A stretch of DNA of 15,167 nt from an uncultured archaeon (lineage in GTDB: Archaea > Asgardarchaeota > Lokiarchaeia > Sigyniarchaeales > SOKP01). Under the pieces are notes generated by a model. The model was not told the DNA's origin, made no database searches, and was given only the letters and a program-made list of their open reading frames with translations. Below, in pieces: positions 887-12,278 of the stretch. Each line of letters starts with the position of its first letter. Position 1 is the first letter of the stretch. Made by a program: the position numbers and the translations under genes. Location of the stretch: positions 43,202 through 58,368 of the forward strand of contig CAYUTF010000013.1 in NCBI GenBank assembly GCA_964447495.1, in the 5' to 3' direction.

Positions 887-1606
887 ATGGGAATTCGTAA
901 GATTGAAGATGAGATCGATTTAAGAGAAGCAATGAAAAAGAAAGCAACAGAACTAAAGATAAAAGATATTCAAGCTAAAGCGGCCACAGAAAATTTCACA
1001 AAGGATAAGTTAAACGAACTAGCAAAGAAGCATGGTGTGATTTTAGCTTTAACTCCTGAACTTAAAGAAGAGGTAAAATTATTACAAAAAAAATATAATA
1101 TCCCTTCTTCTAAAATCATAACTGAACAAATAACTGAAAATGATGTATTAATCAAATTTTCAAAAATTGATCATGAAAAACTGGGAATGCTAGCTTATCA
1201 ACGAGTTTTAATGCAAAAAGAAGAGATTGGGGTTGGATTACTTCCCTTAACTGAAGTCTATGATTTAGTGAATACGGGTATTTTAAGAGGAATATTGGAA
1301 ATTAAAGATTTACACAAAGCATTAAAAATATTAAAGAAGTCACATGTTATTGATGATCTTAAGGAATTAGAATCAGGGGTAATTATGGTGAGATTCTTTC
1401 CTGTTCAATATACGGGAGATCAAGTCAAAGTCATTGGTGTAGCGAAAGATAAAGGATTTATTGCACTGGAAGATGTATGTGTTGCACTTAATTGGTCCCA
1501 AGATCGAGCATTAGAAACATTGAAATCCTTAGAGGAAACGGGAGTTGCTAAATTTCGAGAATCATTACTAAAAGGAAAACAATGGTATTTTCCCTCAATT
1601 AATTAA
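887..1606 (+). CDS. vps22: ESCRT-II subunit Vps22/SNF8-like (EAP30 domain, tandem winged helix)
   Basis: LNELAKKHG..PELKEEV resembles SNF8 LEEFASKHK..PEFRVQF. Also a C-terminal winged helix (LNWSQDRALETLKSLEETG), terminal WYFPS like SNF8 WFP, and adjacency to vps25/vps4/ESCRT-III. Confidence 0.8.
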   Translation: MGIRKIEDEIDLREAMKKKATELKIKDIQAKAATENFTKDKLNELAKKHGVILALTPELKEEVKLLQKKYNIPSSKIITEQITENDVLIKFSKIDHEKLGMLAYQRVLMQKEEIGVGLLPLTEVYDLVNTGILRGILEIKDLHKALKILKKSHVIDDLKELESGVIMVRFFPVQYTGDQVKVIGVAKDKGFIALEDVCVALNWSQDRALETLKSLEETGVAKFRESLLKGKQWYFPSIN

Positions 1607-1608
1607 TT

Positions 1609-2514
1609 TTATTCTACGTTTATTTTAAATGATATCTGTCCATCTTCTAATTTGATTATTTTTCCCTTGTCGTTTTTCTCAAGCATTTTAAATATCTTTA
1701 GAATATCTTCTTTAGGCAGATTACTAAATTCTTTATTTGACTCTCTTATCTCAAAAATAAGAATTGGCTCTAAAGGGGAGATCTCCATTGCCCATTCATA
1801 TATTTCTTCAGCCCAATTGTCAAGTGATTTCCAATAAACCCTTAATTTCTCTTTACTTTTTGATAACCATTCCGCTTGCTGTTTTTGAACTAATTCTTCG
1901 GCAATTTCTTTTAATGATTCTGTCCGATCTTCAAAATTGGAAAATGGTTTTTCAGATTCGAGTTTTCGTAAATATAAGATATGTAATATCGCATATCTCG
2001 CATAATCAAAAAGAATTTTGGACCACTCACTCTTCCAAGATTCGAAATCCTTCAAATCTTTTTTTTTGTTTGGCAAGCTATACATAAATACATATCGTTT
2101 CTCTTCTAACCATGGATAATCATTTACTAAAAGTTCATAGGAAGAAACTTCTTTTGCTACTACTCCTTTTTCTCCAACAATCTCACGTTCAATTAATTGA
2201 AGTTCCTTTTCGACTTCTTCTGCGTTTTGTTGATATGCGTTTATATCTACTTCTCCAAGTTTGGAAGTCAAAAAATCCTCGATCTTATCTAATCTCGCTT
2301 CTATGTCTTCACTTTTAAAAGTAGAAATTTCACCATCTTCCACATTCTCTTCCGAATCATTTTCTGGTTCATTTGTATTAATTCGCTCCAATTCTTTTTG
2401 TTTCTTTAATTCTTTTAGTCTTGCTAGCTCTTTTTTTAATTCCTCTAATTCTTTCTCAGATTTCTCCTTTTCCTCTTTAACGAGTTCCTCTGGCTTTTCT
2501 CTTTGGCGCTCCAT
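1609..2514 (-). CDS. vps25: ESCRT-II subunit Vps25-like with ~125-aa acidic coiled-coil N-terminal extension
   Basis: C-terminal ~170 aa match Vps25 motifs: YPW..FMYSLP (WPW..FFTLQP), WKSEWSKILFDY, VYWKSLDNWAEEIYEWA (IMWRRPEEWGKLIYQWV) and EFSNLPKEDILKIFKMLEK (EFHGLDEATLLRALQAL). Confidence 0.82.
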   Translation of the reverse strand: MERQREKPEELVKEEKEKSEKELEELKKELARLKELKKQKELERINTNEPENDSEENVEDGEISTFKSEDIEARLDKIEDFLTSKLGEVDINAYQQNAEEVEKELQLIEREIVGEKGVVAKEVSSYELLVNDYPWLEEKRYVFMYSLPNKKKDLKDFESWKSEWSKILFDYARYAILHILYLRKLESEKPFSNFEDRTESLKEIAEELVQKQQAEWLSKSKEKLRVYWKSLDNWAEEIYEWAMEISPLEPILIFEIRESNKEFSNLPKEDILKIFKMLEKNDKGKIIKLEDGQISFKINVE

Positions 2515-2537
2515 TAATTCTCATCAATTATTATTTA

Positions 2538-3755
2538 TTAGTACTCTCCATATTCTGCTGCCCAATCTTGATATTTCCTCAATTCAGAACCAGTTGTCAT
2601 TGGTTTTACTTTTTTAAGAGTTTTAATAAAATCTTTTAAAGTTATATCCCGAACTACAACCTCCTTTTCTGAATTTTCAAGTAAACCCCCCATATCTAAT
2701 TCTCTTATGGGGATCATTATTACTTCTCTACATACATTTGCGATATCTCTTCCTGAGTAACCATCAGCTCGAACAGCTAGTTCTATATAATCCTCATCAG
2801 TCAAATCCGAATTAATTCCAGCAGTATGTATTTTAAAAATACCAATTCTTGCTGGCATATCAGGAAGAGGAACATACACTTTTTTTTCAAAACGGCTAAG
2901 CATGGCAGTATCAATATCCCATGGTCGATTTGTTGCTCCTAATACCAATAAAGGTTTGTCATATGTTGATTTCATCCCTTGAATTTCACTTAACAATTGC
3001 GTTTTAACTCGTCTCTCGCCGCCACCTTCATGACCTTCTCCTCTTCTTGTTGCAACAGAGTCAATTTCATCCATAAAAATTAAACTAGGCGCTTTTATTC
3101 GAGCAACTTTAAATAAGGAACTAATTAATTTTTCACTTTCCCCTAACCATTTGCTTAATAAATCTGCGGATGAGACACTAAAGAAAGTAGCTTTACATTC
3201 GGTTGCTGCTGCTTTTGCTAATAAAGTTTTCCCACATCCTGGAGGACCGAATAATAATATTCCCGACCAAGGTTTTCTTGCACCAGTAAATAGTTCTGGT
3301 TTCATAATAGGTAATACAATAGCTTCTCTTAAAGATTGTTTGCAATCCTCTAAACCAGCAATATCCAACCATTTTACATTAGGGGATTCTGTTAAAATAG
3401 TACCAGATATTGAATCTATTATTTCCTGCTCTTCAGAAGAATATAAACTTGGCTCATCCTTAGATTCACTGCTTTTAGAATCGCTTGGACTAGGTTTAGA
3501 GCTTATTCTTCTTGCTCGTGGACCACTTAAATGCTCCTTTAATGCTTGTGCCCGACTCACATATTGCTCAATTTGCTCTTGACATCGTTTAATCATAATA
3601 GGATTCTTGTTATATTTAACAAATTGAATAAGAATTTCAGCAGCTCTTTGATATTTATTTATAGCTTGACGATAATGTCCTTTTTCGTCTAAGGAAACTG
3701 CAGACTGAGCTTCTTGAACCGCGTACTGATAAAGTTTGCTATCAACACTTGACAT
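2538..3755 (-). CDS. vps4: Vps4 AAA+ ATPase with N-terminal MIT domain
   Basis: MIT three-helix region (AQSAVSLDEKGHYRQAINKYQRAAEIL..YVSRAQAL), VKWLDIAGL, Walker A GPPGCGKT, pore loop SKWLGESEK, Walker B IFMDEID, GATNRPW and C-terminal helix YQDWAAEYG. Confidence 0.95.
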   Translation of the reverse strand: MSSVDSKLYQYAVQEAQSAVSLDEKGHYRQAINKYQRAAEILIQFVKYNKNPIMIKRCQEQIEQYVSRAQALKEHLSGPRARRISSKPSPSDSKSSESKDEPSLYSSEEQEIIDSISGTILTESPNVKWLDIAGLEDCKQSLREAIVLPIMKPELFTGARKPWSGILLFGPPGCGKTLLAKAAATECKATFFSVSSADLLSKWLGESEKLISSLFKVARIKAPSLIFMDEIDSVATRRGEGHEGGGERRVKTQLLSEIQGMKSTYDKPLLVLGATNRPWDIDTAMLSRFEKKVYVPLPDMPARIGIFKIHTAGINSDLTDEDYIELAVRADGYSGRDIANVCREVIMIPIRELDMGGLLENSEKEVVVRDITLKDFIKTLKKVKPMTTGSELRKYQDWAAEYGEY

Positions 3756-3917
3756 CGTAAATGACCTTCAAAATTAGTTATTTATTTTATAAAATTCTTA
3801 CTATTTATAGATAATCTAGTTCGATATTTGTTTTTATATATATATCTAAATATATCAAATTTTCTTTTGTTTAATTCACAGTAATAATTGGTCTACAAAA
3901 AATTATATAATTGCGAA

Positions 3918-3938
3918 TTTTTATATAATATATAAAAA
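3918..3938 (+). promoter_or_regulatory. Candidate TATA element of the ESCRT-III gene within a perfect AT palindrome
   Basis: TTTTTATATA-A-TATATAAAAA (10-bp arms) ends 23 nt before ATG 3962, a spacing compatible with a nearly leaderless archaeal transcript. Low complexity weakens the call. Confidence 0.4.
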
Positions 3939-3961
3939 CTACTAAAATTTGATGTTTTGAT

Positions 3962-4588
3962 ATGGGTTTTCTTAAGGATATGAGTAAATGGCTCTCTGGT
4001 GGCAAAAAGAAAGATACTGTCCGTTCTGCAACTGTAAAATTGAAAGTATTTAACAAACGATTAATGAGACAAACTAAGAAAATGGAAATGACTGGTAAAC
4101 TTGCTCGCGATAAAGCTGTGAATTTACGAAAGAATGGTGACTTGGATGGCTCTGCTTTCCATGCCAGGAATTATCTTCAAGTAAAAAAACAAGCGAGGGC
4201 GATAGAAATGTTTCGAACGAATTTAGAAGGAATGGTCTTTAAATTAGAACAAGCTACAGCGGTAAAAGATGTTGCTGACGTCATGCAAGGAATTGCGGCC
4301 AGTTTAAGCGCTCTAAAAAGTCAATTATCCATTCCACAACTAACTGATCTCATGGATAATATCGGAATCGATATGGAAGACTTTGATCTTACCCAAGAAA
4401 TCACTTCAGATGGTATCAGCGATATCCAAATGGATTCTGCAGTCACGGATGCTCAAGTTAAGGAAGTATTAGGTGAAATCGATGCAGAGATAGGTGCAGA
4501 GATAGGCGGCGCACTTCCTACGGTGGATCCTGACGGTAAAGTGAAAGAGCTTGAAGAAGAATTAAATAAATTGAAATCAAGAGATTAG
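3962..4588 (+). CDS. ESCRT-III (Snf7-fold) protein, Vps2/24/46 (CHMP1-3) class
   Basis: N-terminal amphipathic helix MGFLKDMSKWLSGG, basic helical hairpin with GDLDGSAFHARNYL (like the CHMP1 A-x-I-HAENAI segment), acidic C-terminal half and terminal MIM1-like helix ELEEELNKLKSRD. Confidence 0.9.
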   Translation: MGFLKDMSKWLSGGKKKDTVRSATVKLKVFNKRLMRQTKKMEMTGKLARDKAVNLRKNGDLDGSAFHARNYLQVKKQARAIEMFRTNLEGMVFKLEQATAVKDVADVMQGIAASLSALKSQLSIPQLTDLMDNIGIDMEDFDLTQEITSDGISDIQMDSAVTDAQVKEVLGEIDAEIGAEIGGALPTVDPDGKVKELEEELNKLKSRD

Positions 4589-4778
4589 ACTTTATTTTTT
4601 TAGATTTTTCTTGAATTTTTAATTTCATTTCAATAAACAAGATTATTTACGATTTTACACCCTTTTTAATTTATTGATATCGAGAGATTAAACTTATCTT
4701 TTTAGAGGTCTCTTTTTTATAACACTTAATATTATTTTAATAGTTCAATATTTTCATATGTTAAACTAAAAAAATGCT

Positions 4779-4851
4779 GATTTGGTTAAGTTTGGCTAAC
4801 TTATATGGATATTATATCCTATTTTTTTTTCCATTTTATCCATTCCAAATC
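4779..4851 (-). other. Three-helix-junction element in the 3' UTR of the peroxiredoxin-like gene (candidate non-canonical SECIS or RNA-stability element)
   Basis: Perfect pairings 4779-4785/4845-4851 (7 bp), 4787-4792/4798-4803 (6 bp) and 4805-4811/4837-4843 (7 bp), joined by single nucleotides. A T7 tract follows on the minus strand at 4768-4774. Confidence 0.45.
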
Positions 4852-4855
4852 GTTA

Positions 4856-5335
4856 TTAATTTATTTTTTTTAACTCGTTCAAAATTTCCTCATTTCCGGG
4901 TATATCTTTCATACTATCGCTGTAATAAGCATATTGTATGATTCCTTGCTTGTCAATGATTAATAGTCCTGGCATCCTTCCTCCTTTCCACATTTTTACT
5001 TGTTGTTTCAGAAGTTTTGGTATTATTTTTGATTCGTCATAAAATATGGCATATTTCCGTGCGTATTTTTGCTCCATTTTCTGAGCATTTTTTTCATTAT
5101 CGGCTAAAATTGGATATAAGAATCCATCTAAAGCTTCAAATTTTTCAAAATCTCGTCGTAATTCTGCCGCATGCCATCGACAATATGGTCAATGAATATC
5201 CCTAAATAAAATTATAATAACTTTTTTGGTGTTTTCAAATTCTCTGATATTTACGGTTTTCCCTCTCGAATTTGGTAGTTCAAACTCAGCTATTTTCGTA
5301 CCCACTAACTGAAATTTATCTTTAATGATGTTCAC
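4856..5335 (-). CDS. Peroxiredoxin-like (AhpC/TSA, thioredoxin fold) probable selenoprotein, UxxC motif, 159 aa
   Basis: Manual extension upstream of the 73-aa track ORF gives GTG(5335)-NIIKDKFQLVGTKIAEFELPNSRGKTVNIREFENTKKVIIILFRDIH-TGA(5189-5191)-PYCRWHAAELRRDFEKFEALDGFLYPILADNEKNAQK-MEQKY...PGLLIIDKQGIIQYAY. The single TGA sits at the first Cys position of a CxxC motif. The start codon is uncertain because there is no in-frame ATG upstream of the TGA. Confidence 0.85.
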
Positions 5336-5533
5336 TTTAAATTTGTTGTTGCTTAAAAAACAAGACGATCTTCGAATATAAATAATTAAGGTCTATAATC
5401 CAAAAATTCTTACTGTTCCTTATTTTAGATTTTCCGACAATTTTTTTTAATTGTCATATTTCTTTCTACATAAAATTATTATATCCTAAACTCCATTTTT
5501 AATTTATTCGATAAATGTTAAAATTAAATATTA

Positions 5534-6556
5534 GTGGTGGAATTGAATCCAGAATTAATTACTATTGGTAGTTGTACCCTTGATTGTATAATTCAAGTTA
5601 AAGATATTCTTAGATTTGAATTATTTGATAAAGATATAGTTAAAAAATATACAGCAATCGAATACAGTCGAAAATTAAACGTAGAAAATATTATATTCGT
5701 TCCGGGTGGTTCTGGGGCAAATATCGCTGCGAATTGTGCTATGCTTGGGATACGATCAACATATATTGGTGTGATAGGAAAAGATTTTTCTGCTCAAATT
5801 TGTTTGGATGATTTAAAAAAAAGAGGTGTCGATATATCGCACATCACACAAACGAATGAGGATAATACCGCATTTTCAGTTATACTTAAGACAGAGTGGG
5901 GAAAAGATAGGAGTATATTAGCCTATAAAGGCGCAAATAATTTAATTACTCCAGAGCATGTGAAAGAAGAACTCTTTAGCCATATTAAAGCATTTGCATG
6001 GAGTTCACTTACATCAGAAAATGGGTGTAAAGCAATTGAAAAAGCGATAACACTTACAAAGAATAATAATGGACTGGTCTTTGCCGCGCCTAGTATGTCA
6101 ATTATTAAAAATAATCCTAAATGGGCGAAAATTCTCATCGCTAACTCTGACGTTGTTTCTATGAATGCAGAAGAGGCGATAGAGTTTACTAAAGAGCCCG
6201 AACGATATTATGCCGTTAAAAAAATATTTGATTTAGGTCCTAGATTAGTCTCAATTACCGACGGGGCAAGTGGCTCCATATTTACCGATGGAAATAAGGT
6301 TGTCAAAAGCGGTATTTACTCTGTTGATGTAAAGGACACAACTGGGGCAGGAGATGCTTTTCTAAGTGGCATTTTACTTTCTAAATTGAAAGGTTATCCC
6401 TTAGAAAAAACAACCCAAATAGCAACCGCGCTTTCTTCATTGGAATCTATGGAAGTTGGCGTAAGAGAAGGTATGCCAAAGGGACTAAATGAATTAGAGA
6501 AATTTACTGAAACTCATAAATTAAAGCAGATGGTTTCAGAGTTTTCTCAATTTTAA
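5534..6556 (+). CDS. PfkB/ribokinase-family carbohydrate kinase
   Basis: PGGSGANIA, YIGVIGKD, NAEEA and the C-terminal signature DTTGAGDAF; GTG start. Confidence 0.93.
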   Translation: MVELNPELITIGSCTLDCIIQVKDILRFELFDKDIVKKYTAIEYSRKLNVENIIFVPGGSGANIAANCAMLGIRSTYIGVIGKDFSAQICLDDLKKRGVDISHITQTNEDNTAFSVILKTEWGKDRSILAYKGANNLITPEHVKEELFSHIKAFAWSSLTSENGCKAIEKAITLTKNNNGLVFAAPSMSIIKNNPKWAKILIANSDVVSMNAEEAIEFTKEPERYYAVKKIFDLGPRLVSITDGASGSIFTDGNKVVKSGIYSVDVKDTTGAGDAFLSGILLSKLKGYPLEKTTQIATALSSLESMEVGVREGMPKGLNELEKFTETHKLKQMVSEFSQF

Positions 6557-6657
6557 TATTGAAATGAAATTTTTACTATAACGTTTAATTTATCATATAT
6601 CAAATCATTAAGTTTTAATTTTTTATTATATATTATGATACATAGTTGTATTTTTTT

Positions 6658-6729
6658 GCGCTGCTAGTATAGTGGTCAGTATGCCAGGTTGCCAACTTGG
6701 CGACCCGGGTTCAATCCCCGGGCGGCGCA
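6658..6729 (+). tRNA. tRNA-Gly(GCC), intronless, CCA not encoded
   Basis: Cloverleaf: acceptor GCGCTGC/GCGGCGC with discriminator A, anticodon stem CCAGG/CTTGG with loop TTGCCAA (GCC at 6691-6693), T arm CCGGG-TTCAATC-CCCGG. Confidence 0.97.
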
Positions 6730-6857
6730 TCCTACATTTTTATTAAAGAACATTTAGATTTCCAAAATGTATGATTTATTTACTTGATAAAGAATCTTTT
6801 ATTAAAAAAAAAAATAATAAATTATAATAATAAAATTAACTATAAATTCATGAATAG

Positions 6858-8214: not shown

Positions 8215-8704
8215 AAAATTCATTATTTCACTTTCTTTACCTTTTATTGTGACTACAATTATTCCTTCATTGATAATTATATTAATTGAAAAAACACCTA
8301 TTACGAGAATACTCAATAGGAATATATTTCAAATTATTTCGGGTATAGGTATTATAGCTATTGGTTTTATTTTAGTAAGTTGGTGTATAAAAATCTTCTT
8401 TAAGTTAGGAAAAGGTACACTAATGCCAATTTCAAAGTTAGAAACCCAAAAATTAGTGATAAAAGGGCCATATAGATATATCCGGCATCCTATGATTCTT
8501 GGAGTAATTATTATTCTTTTAGGAGAGTCGGTTTTATTTGGATCTTGGTGGTTATTAGGATTTTGCATACTTTTTTTCATTTTAAATCTTATATACCTTC
8601 CACTAGTCGAAGAAAGAGGATTAGAAAAAAGGTTTGGAGATAAATATTTACAATATAAAGCTAAAGTTCATGGTTGGCTGCCAATAAAGAAGTATAAACC
8701 ATGA
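8201..8704 (+). CDS. Isoprenylcysteine carboxyl methyltransferase (ICMT/PEMT)-family membrane methyltransferase
   Basis: LVIKGPYRYIRHPMILG and EERGLEKRFGDKYLQYKAKVHGWLP signatures. ATG 8201 (MAKIKK, 14-nt overlap with the upstream gene) is preferred over 8156. Confidence 0.88.
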   Translation: MAKIKKFIISLSLPFIVTTIIPSLIIILIEKTPITRILNRNIFQIISGIGIIAIGFILVSWCIKIFFKLGKGTLMPISKLETQKLVIKGPYRYIRHPMILGVIIILLGESVLFGSWWLLGFCILFFILNLIYLPLVEERGLEKRFGDKYLQYKAKVHGWLPIKKYKP

Positions 8705-11801: not shown

Positions 11802-12278
11802 ATGAAAGTACTAATTATATATTTCACAATGGGAGGAAGAACAAAAAAGATTGCTGAAGCAATTGCGAGCACTCTAATTAATCATGAAGTGAGTTATTTT
11901 TCATTAGAAATAACAGGAAAATTTAGTGAGAAGTTAAAGGTATTAGAGAAGTTTCGTAATAATGATTTTTCTTTAATAGAGCCCCAACTTAACACTCTAA
12001 ATCCAGCAAATTATGAGATGATAATTTTTGGAATGCCTACTCATGGGGGATTTCCTCCAGTTGTATTTAATGAAATCATAAAACGGATAGGACCCCTTAA
12101 TGGGAAAAAAGGAATTGTATTCACTACTGCCCGTATGACTGGGAGAAAGGCACTTAACTATATGGAAGCTGAGGTTGAGAAAGCAGGTGCTCAGATATTA
12201 GATAAAAGCAATTTTAGAGTATTCTTCTCACTTGGAATAAAAAAAGCCATTAAATTTGGTGCGCAATTCAATATCTGA
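11802..12278 (+). CDS. Flavodoxin-family protein
   Basis: MKVLIIYFTMGGRTKKIAEAIA FMN-phosphate loop, IIFGMPTHGG and LNGKKGIVFTT. Confidence 0.88.
   Translation: MKVLIIYFTMGGRTKKIAEAIASTLINHEVSYFSLEITGKFSEKLKVLEKFRNNDFSLIEPQLNTLNPANYEMIIFGMPTHGGFPPVVFNEIIKRIGPLNGKKGIVFTTARMTGRKALNYMEAEVEKAGAQILDKSNFRVFFSLGIKKAIKFGAQFNI

What the first reader, a model, noticed from the sequence alone, without database searches (positions are those of the whole stretch)
4856..5335. Hidden selenoprotein: peroxiredoxin-like gene with in-frame TGA at the redox site (U49-P-Y-C52)
Seen: the track reports only the last 73 aa, but the frame continues upstream with AhpC/TSA motifs (VGTKIAEFELPNSRGKTVNI; VIIILFR) and a single stop, TGA at 5189-5191, exactly at the first Cys of CxxC. 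TGA ends other genes here (8702-8704, 12276-12278), so global codon reassignment is unlikely. Established: UxxC thioredoxin-fold selenoproteins exist and Lokiarchaeia encode Sec machinery. Standard pipelines would miss this gene or call it a pseudogene.
Basis: partly seen in the sequence, partly recalled or inferred. Interest (0 to 1): 0.78.

Follow-up and report, generated by a model that had tools for sequence, protein, structure and literature searches.

The report
Known Loki selenoprotein PrxL, three-armed SECIS
This is a real gene for a small peroxiredoxin-like redox protein whose active-site cysteine is replaced by selenocysteine, a family already published for Loki-type (Asgard) archaea; the unusual part is the RNA signal behind the gene.

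Summary
A minus-strand frame from GTG 5335 to TAA 4856 is open except for one TGA at 5189-5191. That TGA sits at the first position of a U49-P-Y-C52 redox box in an AhpC/TSA-Redoxin fold.

The TGA is almost certainly selenocysteine:
- It is kept at the same column in 29 of 31 close homologues and in 79 of 80 public Asgard loci.
- Both halves of the gene are under strong purifying selection.
- The genome holds tRNA-Sec, SepSecS, a Sec-containing SelD, a PSTK-like gene and SelB/EFSec.
- TGA ends other Pfam-supported genes in the window.

The family is not new. It is PrxL, the Prx-like selenoprotein of Lokiarchaeota (Mariotti 2016), reported in 43% of Sec-using Asgard archaea (Huang 2024).

The 3' UTR differs from the papers' text. 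It has no AUGA-9 bp-11 nt-9 bp-GA lokiSECIS, although hdrA-vhuD in this genome has one. Instead a covarying three-armed element starts 6 nt after the stop. It is conserved across the phylum and was found only behind Sec-prxL genes. Many copies, this one included, carry tandem GA/GA at the apex of the long arm, a SECIS-core-like motif on swapped strands.

Earlier agents of this scan noted the same odd SECIS on other genomes.

The parts
4856..5335 (-). prxL coding sequence: 159 codons plus TAA, with one in-frame UGA. It encodes a Prx-like thioredoxin-fold selenoprotein.
   Evidence: Translation. Pfam AhpC-TSA 6e-19 and Redoxin 1.1e-12. AF2 model with pLDDT 94.4, and Foldseek best matches to BCP/PrxQ/AhpE with TM 0.80-0.84. 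Orthologues.
5333..5335 (-). GTG start codon
   Evidence: GTG stands four codons before the conserved KDKF in 5 of the 5 closest sequences, the window included. More distant relatives start with ATG or TTG directly at (M)KDKF. Inferred, not shown.
5189..5191 (-). UGA codon 49, read as selenocysteine. It is the first position of the redox box U-P-Y-C.
   Evidence: Same column in 29 of 31, 31 of 31 and 79 of 80 homologous loci. Unchanged in contigs of runs X3, X4 and X5.
5180..5182 (-). TGT, Cys52, the resolving partner of Sec49 and the only Cys of the protein
   Evidence: This position is Cys in the orthologous clade, Ala/Ser/Thr in a paralogous clade, and Sec in one UGVU relative.
4778..4852 (-). 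Three-armed (Y-shaped) 3'-UTR RNA element, the presumed SECIS of prxL
   Evidence: The MFE fold is Y-shaped, -14.4 kcal/mol, z -2.7. Model R1 scores 79.1 bits, and the only other hit in the genome lies behind the second prxL. Covariation is shown.
4845..4851 (-). P1 5' arm GAUUUGG, pairing with 4779-4785 (CCAAAUC)
   Evidence: 98% of cells paired. In GC-rich and Lokiarchaeum-type relatives the arms are fully exchanged, for example CAAAC/GUUUG and GAUGC/GCAUC.
4805..4843 (-). P2 long hairpin. Arms are 4833-4843 and 4805-4815: 9 pairs plus two A.A mismatches. The apex 4816-4832 has G.U, G.A and A.G closing the 11-nt loop AAAAAAAAUAG.
   Evidence: All 11 P2 pairs show changes on both sides across 81 distinct sequences. 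The apex motif is counted. Relatives L022 and L076 have A-U where the window has A.A.
4787..4803 (-). P3 short hairpin with the near-invariant loop motif UAGCCA
   Evidence: invariant T..CC columns; 5 of 5 pairs with changes on both sides.
4768..4774 (-). T7 run directly after the element, a likely archaeal transcription stop
   Evidence: T-rich runs follow the element in most relatives. Inferred.
5375..5385 (-). A/T-rich TATA-like box about 40-50 nt upstream of the GTG
   Evidence: Sequence only. Inferred. An RNA-library contig of a 95%-alike relative ends at 5341, which is only a weak hint.

Best explanation
This is an intact prxL gene of a Loki-type (Promethearchaeota/Asgard) archaeon. UGA-49 is decoded as selenocysteine by the genome's own archaeal/eukaryal-type Sec pathway: tRNA-Sec, PSTK, SepSecS, a Sec-containing SelD, and EFSec/SelB.

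The product is a 159-residue thioredoxin-fold, peroxiredoxin-like protein. Its Sec49 sits just before the first long helix, with Cys52 one turn later. It most likely cycles between a selenol/thiol and a selenenylsulfide, so it would act as a thiol:disulfide-type oxidoreductase or peroxide reductase (inferred; no member has been characterised).

Recoding is most likely directed by the three-armed RNA that starts 6 nt after the stop (window 4778-4852). Its long arm, P2, resembles the helix and A-rich loop of the published lokiSECIS. It lacks the AUGA_GA kink-turn at its base and instead carries tandem G.A/A.G pairs at its apex. A third arm carries the invariant loop UAGCCA.

Shown: the gene, the conserved UGA, the machinery, and the conserved structure with its exclusive link to Sec-prxL. 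Inferred: Sec insertion itself, the element's role as SECIS, and the chemistry. The confidence of 0.85 is for the gene being a Sec-encoding prxL; for the element being its SECIS I put about 0.7.
For: Gene and UGA:
- establish the frame and the fold family.
- 37 of 39 strong matches in relatives carry an in-frame TGA.
- Sec is at the same column in 29 of 31, 31 of 31 and 79 of 80 loci.
- dN/dS against the three closest orthologues is 0.034-0.075 upstream and 0.040-0.078 downstream of the TGA.
- The Sec column aligns with Cys of CPY in 2cvb.
- In the AF2 model (pLDDT 94.4) residue 49 directly precedes helix 50-61, and the fold matches BCP/AhpE at TM 0.80-0.84.

Machinery:
- tRNA-Sec with a 9/4 acceptor/T arm.
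- SepSecS at 475 bits, next to the tRNA.
- SelD with GUSCK.
- A PSTK-like gene at 145 bits.
- SelB at 245 bits.
- TGA ends other real genes.

Element:
- The MFE fold is Y-shaped.
- 26 of 33 relatives' UTRs fold the same way.
- 93.6% of cells are paired, and 20 of 23 pairs change on both sides, against 10.6 in shuffles and 27-52% paired when slid.
- R1 hits only the two prxL UTRs in this genome.
- R1 hits 75 of 151 genomes of the class.
- 31 of 31 fetched hits lie right behind a Sec-prxL.
- 79 of 80 public prxL loci have it.
- The two Asp-containing paralogues lack it.
- The apical symmetric GA...GA, with [A/G]UGA on the 3' side, occurs in 26 of 66 distinct UxxC elements, against a mean of 2.7 and a maximum of 9 in 1000 loop shuffles.
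Against: - There is no direct evidence of Sec insertion: no protein or labelling data.
- The canonical lokiSECIS pattern is absent from the UTR, and Rfam finds no SECIS. Calling the element a SECIS therefore rests on association and partial likeness.
- Only two non-Sec paralogues were available as negative controls.
- The apical GA/GA motif is not universal. It is missing on the 5' side in the UPFC clade and in the U-P-Y-A paralogues.
- The window's own P2 has two A.A mismatches where close relatives pair.
- The PSTK match is below NCBIfam's cut-off.
- dS exceeds 1 in all comparisons, so the dN/dS ratios are rough.
- Alignments A4 and A6 were fitted to the model, which favours the structure.
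Confidence: 0.85

Rival explanations
1. The three-armed element is not the SECIS. It would be a terminator, stability or regulatory structure specific to prxL mRNAs, and Sec insertion would be directed by something else, such as a signal inside the coding sequence or a weak eSECIS-like hairpin further downstream.
For: The AUGA_GA core named in both papers is lacking. A T7 run follows it, as after a terminator hairpin. The loose published eSECIS-like model does match twice further downstream in the UTR.
Against: Those two downstream matches are at chance level: 95% of shuffles give at least one, with a mean of 2.9. They also lie beyond the T-run, in sequence that is not conserved in relatives. 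The element is conserved in sequence and structure across Asgard classes, always 0-30 nt after the stop of Sec-containing prxL, and is absent from the two Asp paralogues. In one clade its P2 loop is nearly the same as the loop of the canonical lokiSECIS of this genome.
Confidence: 0.15
2. The TGA is a true stop. The gene would be a pseudogene or split gene, and only a C-terminal fragment (73-110 aa), or nothing, would be made.
For: Table 11 gives only the 73-aa ORF. NCBI records annotate 90-100 aa fragments.
Against: The TGA is kept at one column across the phylum. The 45 codons upstream are under dN/dS 0.03-0.08 and carry the N-terminal half of the fold, including the redox box. A fragment would lack the active site.
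Confidence: 0.03
3. UGA-49 is read as a standard amino acid (Trp, Cys or Gly), either by near-cognate read-through or by a reassigned code.
For: Public gene calls on short contigs translate it as W and give full-length products.
Against: TGA ends Pfam-supported genes in the same window. The W-containing calls also run through the real stop region into the UTR. The column is the catalytic Cys of the fold. A complete Sec pathway and other multi-Sec genes (hdrA-vhuD, selD) are present.
Confidence: 0.03

Closest known systems
PrxL (Prx-like) selenoproteins of Lokiarchaeota: PrxL.2 = UxxC, PrxL.1 = UxxU (Mariotti et al. 2016, PMC4989117). Called 'Prx-like protein' in Huang et al. 2024, PMC11227280.
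   Same: Same AhpC/TSA-type fold. A CxxC-type redox box replaces the Prx T/SxxC motif, with Sec at the first position. There is no Cys outside the box. The host is an Asgard archaeon, the signal lies in the 3' UTR close to the stop, and public annotation truncates the gene.
   Different: The papers' text describes the PrxL SECIS as AUGA, a 9-bp stem, an 11-nt loop and GA. Here that core is absent, and the hairpin is one arm of a three-way junction with two further conserved helices. I could not tell whether the published PrxL.2 is this orthologue, because the supplements are closed.
lokiSECIS / type I eSECIS-like element (Mariotti 2016; Huang 2024)
   Same: A roughly 9-bp AU-rich helix is capped by an A-rich loop ending in AG or GAG, placed right after the stop. 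The [A/G]UGA and GA dinucleotides can form tandem G.A pairs. The same genome uses the canonical form behind hdrA-vhuD.
   Different: The GA/GA motif sits at the apex of the helix, with [A/G]UGA on the 3' strand, not at its base with AUGA on the 5' strand. P1 and P3 (loop UAGCCA) are added. The element was found only behind prxL.
Bacterial Prx-like thiol:disulfide oxidoreductase selenoproteins (UxxC, UxxU; table in PMC13188914) and eukaryotic SelL (UxxU)
   Same: Same Pfam family (PF00578) and the same redox-box logic. The NCBIfam model 'SelL-related redox protein' is the best hit.
   Different: That hit scores 50 bits against a cut-off of 120, so this protein is not a member of that subfamily. 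The decoding system and SECIS type also differ.
BCP/PrxQ and AhpE peroxiredoxins (for example 3hjp, 3drn, 1xxu) and the thioredoxin-like protein 2cvb
   Same: Same fold at TM 0.80-0.84. 2cvb shares the CPY motif at the Sec column.
   Different: Typical Prx have Thr/Ser at the position of Sec49 and their peroxidatic Cys at the position of Cys52. Sequence identity is only 14-22%.
K-loop (box C'/D'-type kink-turn closed by a loop) of archaeal sRNAs. This resemblance is recalled from memory and was not tested.
   Same: A helix ends in N.N, G.A and A.G pairs closed by a terminal loop, as at the P2 apex.
   Different: No binding protein is known here. The motif is absent from some clades of the element.

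Membership tests
PrxL (Prx-like selenoprotein of Asgard archaea) | AhpC/TSA-Redoxin (thioredoxin-like) fold | tested here: met
   Pfam PF00578 6e-19 and PF08534 1.1e-12. AF2 pLDDT 94.4 and Foldseek TM 0.80-0.84 to BCP/AhpE.
PrxL (Prx-like selenoprotein of Asgard archaea) | A CxxC-type redox box instead of the Prx T/SxxC motif, with the first position encoded by in-frame UGA | tested here: met
   U49-P-Y-C52. The same column is Sec in 29 of 31 and 79 of 80 homologues.
PrxL (Prx-like selenoprotein of Asgard archaea) | No Cys outside the redox box (stated in PMC4989117, section 10) | tested here: met
   The only Cys in the 159-residue product is C52.
PrxL (Prx-like selenoprotein of Asgard archaea) | The host genome encodes the archaeal/eukaryal Sec pathway | tested here: met
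   tRNA-Sec, SepSecS at 475 bits, SelD with Sec and SelB at 245 bits. The PSTK-like gene scores 145 bits, below the cut-off of 290.
PrxL (Prx-like selenoprotein of Asgard archaea) | Sec is actually incorporated (protein evidence) | not testable with these tools
   No proteomic or labelling data are available. An RNA-library contig of a 95%-alike relative spans the UGA, but this shows neither transcription nor translation with certainty.
lokiSECIS / type I eSECIS-like element | AUGA immediately 5' and GA (or AA) immediately 3' of a roughly 9-bp stem with an 11-nt A-rich loop | tested here: not met
   The pattern scan of 300 nt after the stop, with stems 7-12, loops 7-19 and at most 1 mismatch, gave no hit for the window. 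The strict scan finds it only behind the two hdrA-vhuD pairs of this genome. The base of P2 is Watson-Crick paired and covaries.
lokiSECIS / type I eSECIS-like element | A 9-bp helix capped by a loop that begins with a run of A and ends in AG, close to the stop codon | tested here: met
   The window's apex loop is AAAAAAAAUAG (11 nt) and the element starts 6 nt after the stop. The UPFC clade has a 9-bp core and the loop AAUAAAAAUGAG, against AAAAAAAUGAG in the canonical element of this genome.
lokiSECIS / type I eSECIS-like element | Loose model of Huang 2024: GA_[G/A]A around a 7-15 bp stem (at most 2 mismatches) with an 8-20 nt loop | tested here: inconclusive
   Two matches lie 160 and 177 nt after the stop, but 95% of shuffled UTRs also match, with a mean of 2.9. 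The model does not discriminate in this AT-rich sequence.
Typical peroxiredoxin (Prx: BCP/PrxQ, AhpC, AhpE) | Active-site motif PxxxT/SxxC with a peroxidatic Cys | tested here: not met
   The motif is RDIH-U-PY-C. Sec stands at the T/S position and there is no Pro four residues before it. Only the fold is shared.
SelL-related redox protein (NCBIfam NF040769) | Score over the curated cut-off | tested here: not met
   50.2 bits against a cut-off of 120.

The most novel reading that the evidence does not exclude
The prxL selenoprotein genes of Asgard archaea use a distinct, phylum-wide SECIS architecture that the published descriptions I could read do not mention. It is a three-way junction in which the SECIS-core dinucleotides ([A/G]UGA and GA) sit on swapped strands at the apex of the roughly 9-11-bp helix, closed by an A-rich loop like a K-loop. 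The mRNA enters and leaves through the end that is the apical loop in the canonical lokiSECIS. In effect this is a circularly permuted SECIS, with an extra arm carrying the invariant loop UAGCCA. One genome would then decode UGA with two topologically different signals, canonical behind hdrA-vhuD and permuted behind prxL. That would constrain what the unknown Asgard SECIS-binding factor recognises.
Probability: 0.35. Interest if true: 0.6.

Novelty: new member of a known kind. Interest (0 to 1): 0.38.

Why it matters
For annotation, this gene and its paralogue on another contig are cut to fragments or mistranslated with Trp in public records, and they should be called as selenoproteins. For biology, the gene itself adds nothing beyond the 2016 and 2024 papers.

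The RNA behind it is the more interesting part. Asgard SECIS elements are used to argue how the eukaryotic SECIS arose. This one is a conserved, covarying three-armed signal without the basal kink-turn, next to canonical elements in the same genome. It shows that the Asgard decoding factor accepts more than the published shape. It also offers a natural pair of test substrates for finding that factor.

Tried and rejected
- Rfam, E <= 10, on 4000-6000 gave no SECIS family, only chance-level snoRNA/sRNA matches.
- RNAalifold on the raw MAFFT alignment of whole UTRs predicted no pairs. The alignment with flanks was too poor, so I trimmed the elements and named the structure myself.
- The strict lokiSECIS pattern in homologues' UTRs gave only a few weak AT-rich matches that are not in register.
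- Model R1 with default filters did not find the GC-rich or strand-swapped versions (L035, L038, L044, L047, L056, L057, L161). Their Y-shape rests on single-sequence folds only.
- The P3 loop might pair with the mRNA near the UGA or with tRNA-Sec. I found no complement of 6 nt or more in 68 loci and none in tRNA-Sec.
- A basal kink-turn or k-junction at the three-way junction is rejected. There are no conserved GA dinucleotides there, and the base of P2 covaries as Watson-Crick pairs.
- My first hairpin parser for the apex motif mis-assigned arms in several sequences, the window included. The second parse, restricted to the region after P1, still misparses the window, so the window's own apex pairs are read by hand.
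- Depth and coverage of the laid contigs say nothing on expression. Parts without cover in X4, X5 and X16 are no finding.
- A look-up of earlier findings by the element's sequence returned nothing.

Full report
**1. The observation**

On the minus strand, the frame from GTG 5335 to TAA 4856 is open except for one TGA at 5191-5189. With TGA read through, the product is 159 residues and carries ...LFRDIH-U49-P-Y-C52-RWH...

Pfam matches the read-through protein across the TGA: AhpC-TSA 6e-19 and Redoxin 1.1e-12, over residues 26-157 of the 174-residue translation.

TGA at 8702-8704 and 12276-12278 closes ORFs that match PEMT/ICMT and flavodoxin families. TGA is therefore a normal stop in this organism.

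Contigs of three further DNA runs cover the codon without a difference. They share a habitat label with the likely source, so they exclude an assembly slip but are not fully independent.

**2. Is the TGA conserved and coding?**

A six-frame search of 61 related genomes gave 39 matches with E <= 3e-23, and 37 of them contain an in-frame TGA.

- From 30 fetched loci I extracted 31 homologous frames. 29 have TGA at the very column of U49. The other 2, which are tandem or stand-alone paralogues, have Asp there in the motif MDLFCQ.
- A scan of one genome per species (GTDB) gave 80 loci. 79 parse with Sec at the redox box. The 80th (L107) was mis-registered because the match joined two tandem genes.
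- The record titles of those loci name Promethearchaeota and also Freyarchaeota, Jordarchaeia, Atabeyarchaeia, Borrarchaeum, and Hermod-, Hod- and Thorarchaeota-labelled MAGs, as well as Candidatus Lokiarchaeum ossiferum.
- Against the three closest orthologues, dN/dS is 0.034, 0.039 and 0.075 for the 45 codons upstream of the TGA, and 0.040, 0.058 and 0.078 for the 110 codons downstream. dS exceeds 1, so the ratios are rough, but both halves are clearly under purifying selection.
- GTG 5335 is kept four codons before KDKF in the 5 closest sequences, the window included.

**3. Sec machinery**

- ARAGORN finds one tRNA-Sec (anticodon TCA, 93 nt, 9-bp acceptor and 4-bp T stem) on contig C19.
- SepSecS lies directly beside it: 475 bits against a cut-off of 225.
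- SelB/EFSec is 4 kb away: 245 bits against a cut-off of 242.
- SelD matches at 177 bits and itself contains TGA in the motif GUSCK.
- The best PSTK-like gene scores 145 bits, below the cut-off of 290.
- Two hdrA-vhuD tandems with several Sec codons are each followed by a textbook lokiSECIS: ATGA, a 9-bp stem, an 11-nt loop AAAAAAAUGAG or AAAAAUAAUAG, then GA. This agrees with earlier notes of this scan on the same genome.

**4. What the protein is**

- The AF2 model is confident (pLDDT 94.4, pTM 0.90). Residue 49 lies directly before helix 50-61.
- Foldseek's best solved matches are BCP/PrxQ, AhpE and AhpC-type peroxiredoxins and ResA-type oxidoreductases, at TM 0.72-0.84 and 10-22% identity.
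- By sequence, the best solved relative is 2cvb, a thioredoxin-like protein whose CPY aligns with U-P-Y.
- NCBIfam's best model is 'SelL-related redox protein', at 50 bits and far below its cut-off.
- Sec occupies the position of the Thr/Ser of the Prx motif, and Cys52 the position of the peroxidatic Cys. This is the definition of 'Prx-like' given in PMC4989117 (section 10).
- The protein has no other Cys.

The mechanism I commit to is a Sec49-Cys52 selenenylsulfide redox couple, acting as a thiol:disulfide oxidoreductase or as a peroxide or disulfide reductase. This is an inference from the fold and the motif. According to that paper, the family has never been characterised.

**5. Comparison with what is known**

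PMC4989117 (sections 10, 11 and 17 read, plus passages) reports PrxL.1 (UxxU) and PrxL.2 (UxxC) in Lokiarchaeota. PMC11227280 (sections 7, 14 and 16 read, plus passages) finds Prx-like selenoproteins in 43.2% of Sec-using Asgard archaea. PMC13188914 (passages read) lists 'Prx-like thiol:disulfide oxidoreductase, UxxC, UxxU' among predicted prokaryotic selenoproteins. The gene is therefore a further member of a published family.

Public protein records confirm the annotation problem. NCBI entries are 90-100 aa C-terminal fragments named redoxin domain-containing protein or thioredoxin peroxidase. The 'full-length' entries from short contigs carry W at the Sec site, and some run on into the UTR, so they were called with TGA=Trp.

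**6. The 3' UTR**

The published lokiSECIS pattern is absent. My scan of the 300 nt after the stop gave nothing for the window, and Rfam has no match.

Instead, all Sec-containing homologues carry a conserved element 0-30 nt after the stop. In the window it spans 4852-4778. Its parts are:
- P1: GAUUUGG pairing with CCAAAUC.
- P2: a long hairpin.
- P3: a short hairpin with the loop UAGCCA.
- A T7 run directly after the element.

Evidence for the fold:
- The window's MFE fold is this Y-shape: -14.4 kcal/mol, z -2.7.
- 26 of 33 relatives' UTRs fold the same way in one fixed frame. 28 of 33 do so in at least one of the frames tried.
- On a MAFFT alignment of 22 elements with the structure I named, 89.9% of cells pair, and 13 of 23 pairs change on both sides, against 5.1 in shuffles and 28-53% paired when slid.
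- On model-fitted alignments, which lean towards the structure, 43 distinct rows give 93.2% paired and 19 of 23 pairs, and 81 distinct rows give 93.6% and 20 of 23 pairs.
- GC-rich relatives and the Lokiarchaeum-type version keep the three arms with entirely different stem sequences. The model did not detect these, so they rest on single-sequence folds.

**7. Link to Sec**

- In the own genome, model R1 hits exactly two places: the UTRs of this gene and of a second prxL on contig C48, whose box is U-P-Y-A.
- In 151 genomes of the class, 75 have a hit, mostly one each.
- All 31 loci fetched for the best hits have a Sec-prxL frame ending just upstream.
- 79 of 80 public prxL loci have a hit. The miss is L161, which has the strand-swapped P1.
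- The two Asp paralogues have no such element.
- A distinct, distantly related UxxU gene (L051) has an AUGA...AA hairpin instead.

The element is thus tied to Sec-containing members of this prxL family. It is the only conserved structure between the stop and the T-run. I take it to be their SECIS, with confidence of about 0.7.

**8. How it relates to the lokiSECIS**

P2 has a 9-bp core plus 1-2 weaker pairs. In the UPFC clade its loop is AAUAAAAAUGAG, almost the same as the loop of the canonical element in this genome. The base of P2 is Watson-Crick paired and covaries, so there is no kink-turn there.

In many UxxC elements from several Asgard classes the apex reads N-GA-AAA...[A/G]UGA-N. The two GA dinucleotides are equally far from the helix end, so tandem G.A/A.G pairs can form.
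- A strict parse finds this in 26 of 66 distinct UxxC elements, against a mean of 2.7 and a maximum of 9 in 1000 loop shuffles. It finds it in 1 of 13 other elements.
- The parser misreads some sequences, the window among them.
- By hand, the window's apex is G4832.U4816, G4831.A4817 and A4830.G4818, around the 11-nt loop AAAAAAAAUAG.

This is the SECIS-core pair of motifs ([A/G]UGA and GA, as named in PMC11227280) on swapped strands, at the other end of the helix. It looks like a circular permutation closed by a loop. The likeness to K-loops is recalled, not tested.

Several results count against a general rule. The UPFC clade lacks the 5' GA. The U-P-Y-A paralogues have only the 3' UGA. The window's P2 has two A.A mismatches where L022 and L076 pair.

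The loose published model (GA_[G/A]A, at most 2 mismatches) would report 'eSECIS-like' hairpins in this UTR. It does so in 95% of shuffles too, so such calls in AT-rich Asgard UTRs are weak.

**9. Earlier findings of this scan**

Follow-up agents described the same situation on other genomes: 'Known Loki selenoprotein PrxL, odd SECIS' and 'three-armed SECIS behind prxL'. Others found canonical lokiSECIS elements behind PrxL genes elsewhere. I treated these notes as leads.
- The absence of the basal core and the three arms were tested here on this window and across the phylum.
- The apical GA/GA reading is not in those notes as shown to me.

**10. Verdict**

The gene is an ordinary new member of a published selenoprotein family. 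The one point of wider interest is the prxL-specific three-armed signal.

Whether that signal is undescribed cannot be settled while the supplements of the two key papers are closed. My searches found no paper that describes such a structure in the titles, abstracts and passages I read: 'Lokiarchaeota, selenocysteine, SECIS' gave 22 papers and 'SECIS, Prx-like, Asgard' gave 4 papers.

Noticed in passing
window 887-4588: An Asgard ESCRT gene cluster lies next to prxL: an EAP30/Vps36-family gene (887-1606, +), an ESCRT-II subunit (1609-2514, -), Vps4 with MIT, AAA and Vps4_C domains (2538-3755, -) and Snf7/ESCRT-III (3962-4588, +). The Snf7 gene is convergent with prxL.
   Followed up: partly
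G000 contig C48:7760-8319 (locus L060): The genome has a second prxL paralogue with the redox box U-P-Y-A, so it has no resolving Cys. It carries the same three-armed element behind it. This paralogous clade (UPYA/UPYS/UPYT/UPHA) is widespread and would have to work as a one-Sec enzyme.
   Followed up: partly
proteins P0002-P0050: Public 'full-length' entries of this family carry Trp at the Sec position (HWPYC), and some continue into the 3' UTR. This is evidently because gene callers chose a TGA=Trp code for short, low-GC contigs. It is a systematic mistranslation in metagenome protein catalogues.
   Followed up: partly
G000 contig C19:37873-44471: The Sec machinery is clustered: SepSecS, tRNA-Sec directly beside it, and SelB/EFSec about 4 kb away.
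   Followed up: no
G000 contigs C25 (about 14610, -) and C51 (about 4564, +): Two hdrA-vhuD tandems with several in-frame TGA codons each share one canonical lokiSECIS after vhuD. This was already noted by earlier agents on this genome.
   Followed up: partly
window 4805-4843: The window's copy of P2 has two adjacent A.A mismatches (TT to AA in the 3' arm) where the closest relatives L022 and L076 have A-U or G.U pairs. One G.U has become G-C. Whether this weakens the signal is unknown.
   Followed up: no
loci L066, L090/L126, L167, L169: Several genomes carry two Sec-prxL genes in tandem, each with its own three-armed element. Examples are a UPFC gene plus a UPYA gene 1.2 kb apart in L066, and two element hits in each of the Borrarchaeum loci.
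   Followed up: no
locus L051 (G050:C1:3622539-3624229): A distantly related Prx-like gene has a FUSHU box (two Sec) and an AUGA...AA hairpin after the stop. This is probably the PrxL.1-type gene with a more canonical SECIS.
   Followed up: no
window 5075-5341: A contig from a metatranscriptome library (run X16, about 95% alike, so from a relative) spans the start region and the TGA and ends 6 nt upstream of the GTG. This is compatible with a short leader, but DNA carry-over cannot be excluded.
   Followed up: no
G000 contig C15:28156-28256: ARAGORN reports a 101-nt 'tRNA-???' with a four-letter anticodon (aacc). It may be an intron-containing tRNA.
   Followed up: no
window 6657-6732: tRNA-Gly (GCC) on the plus strand.
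   Followed up: no
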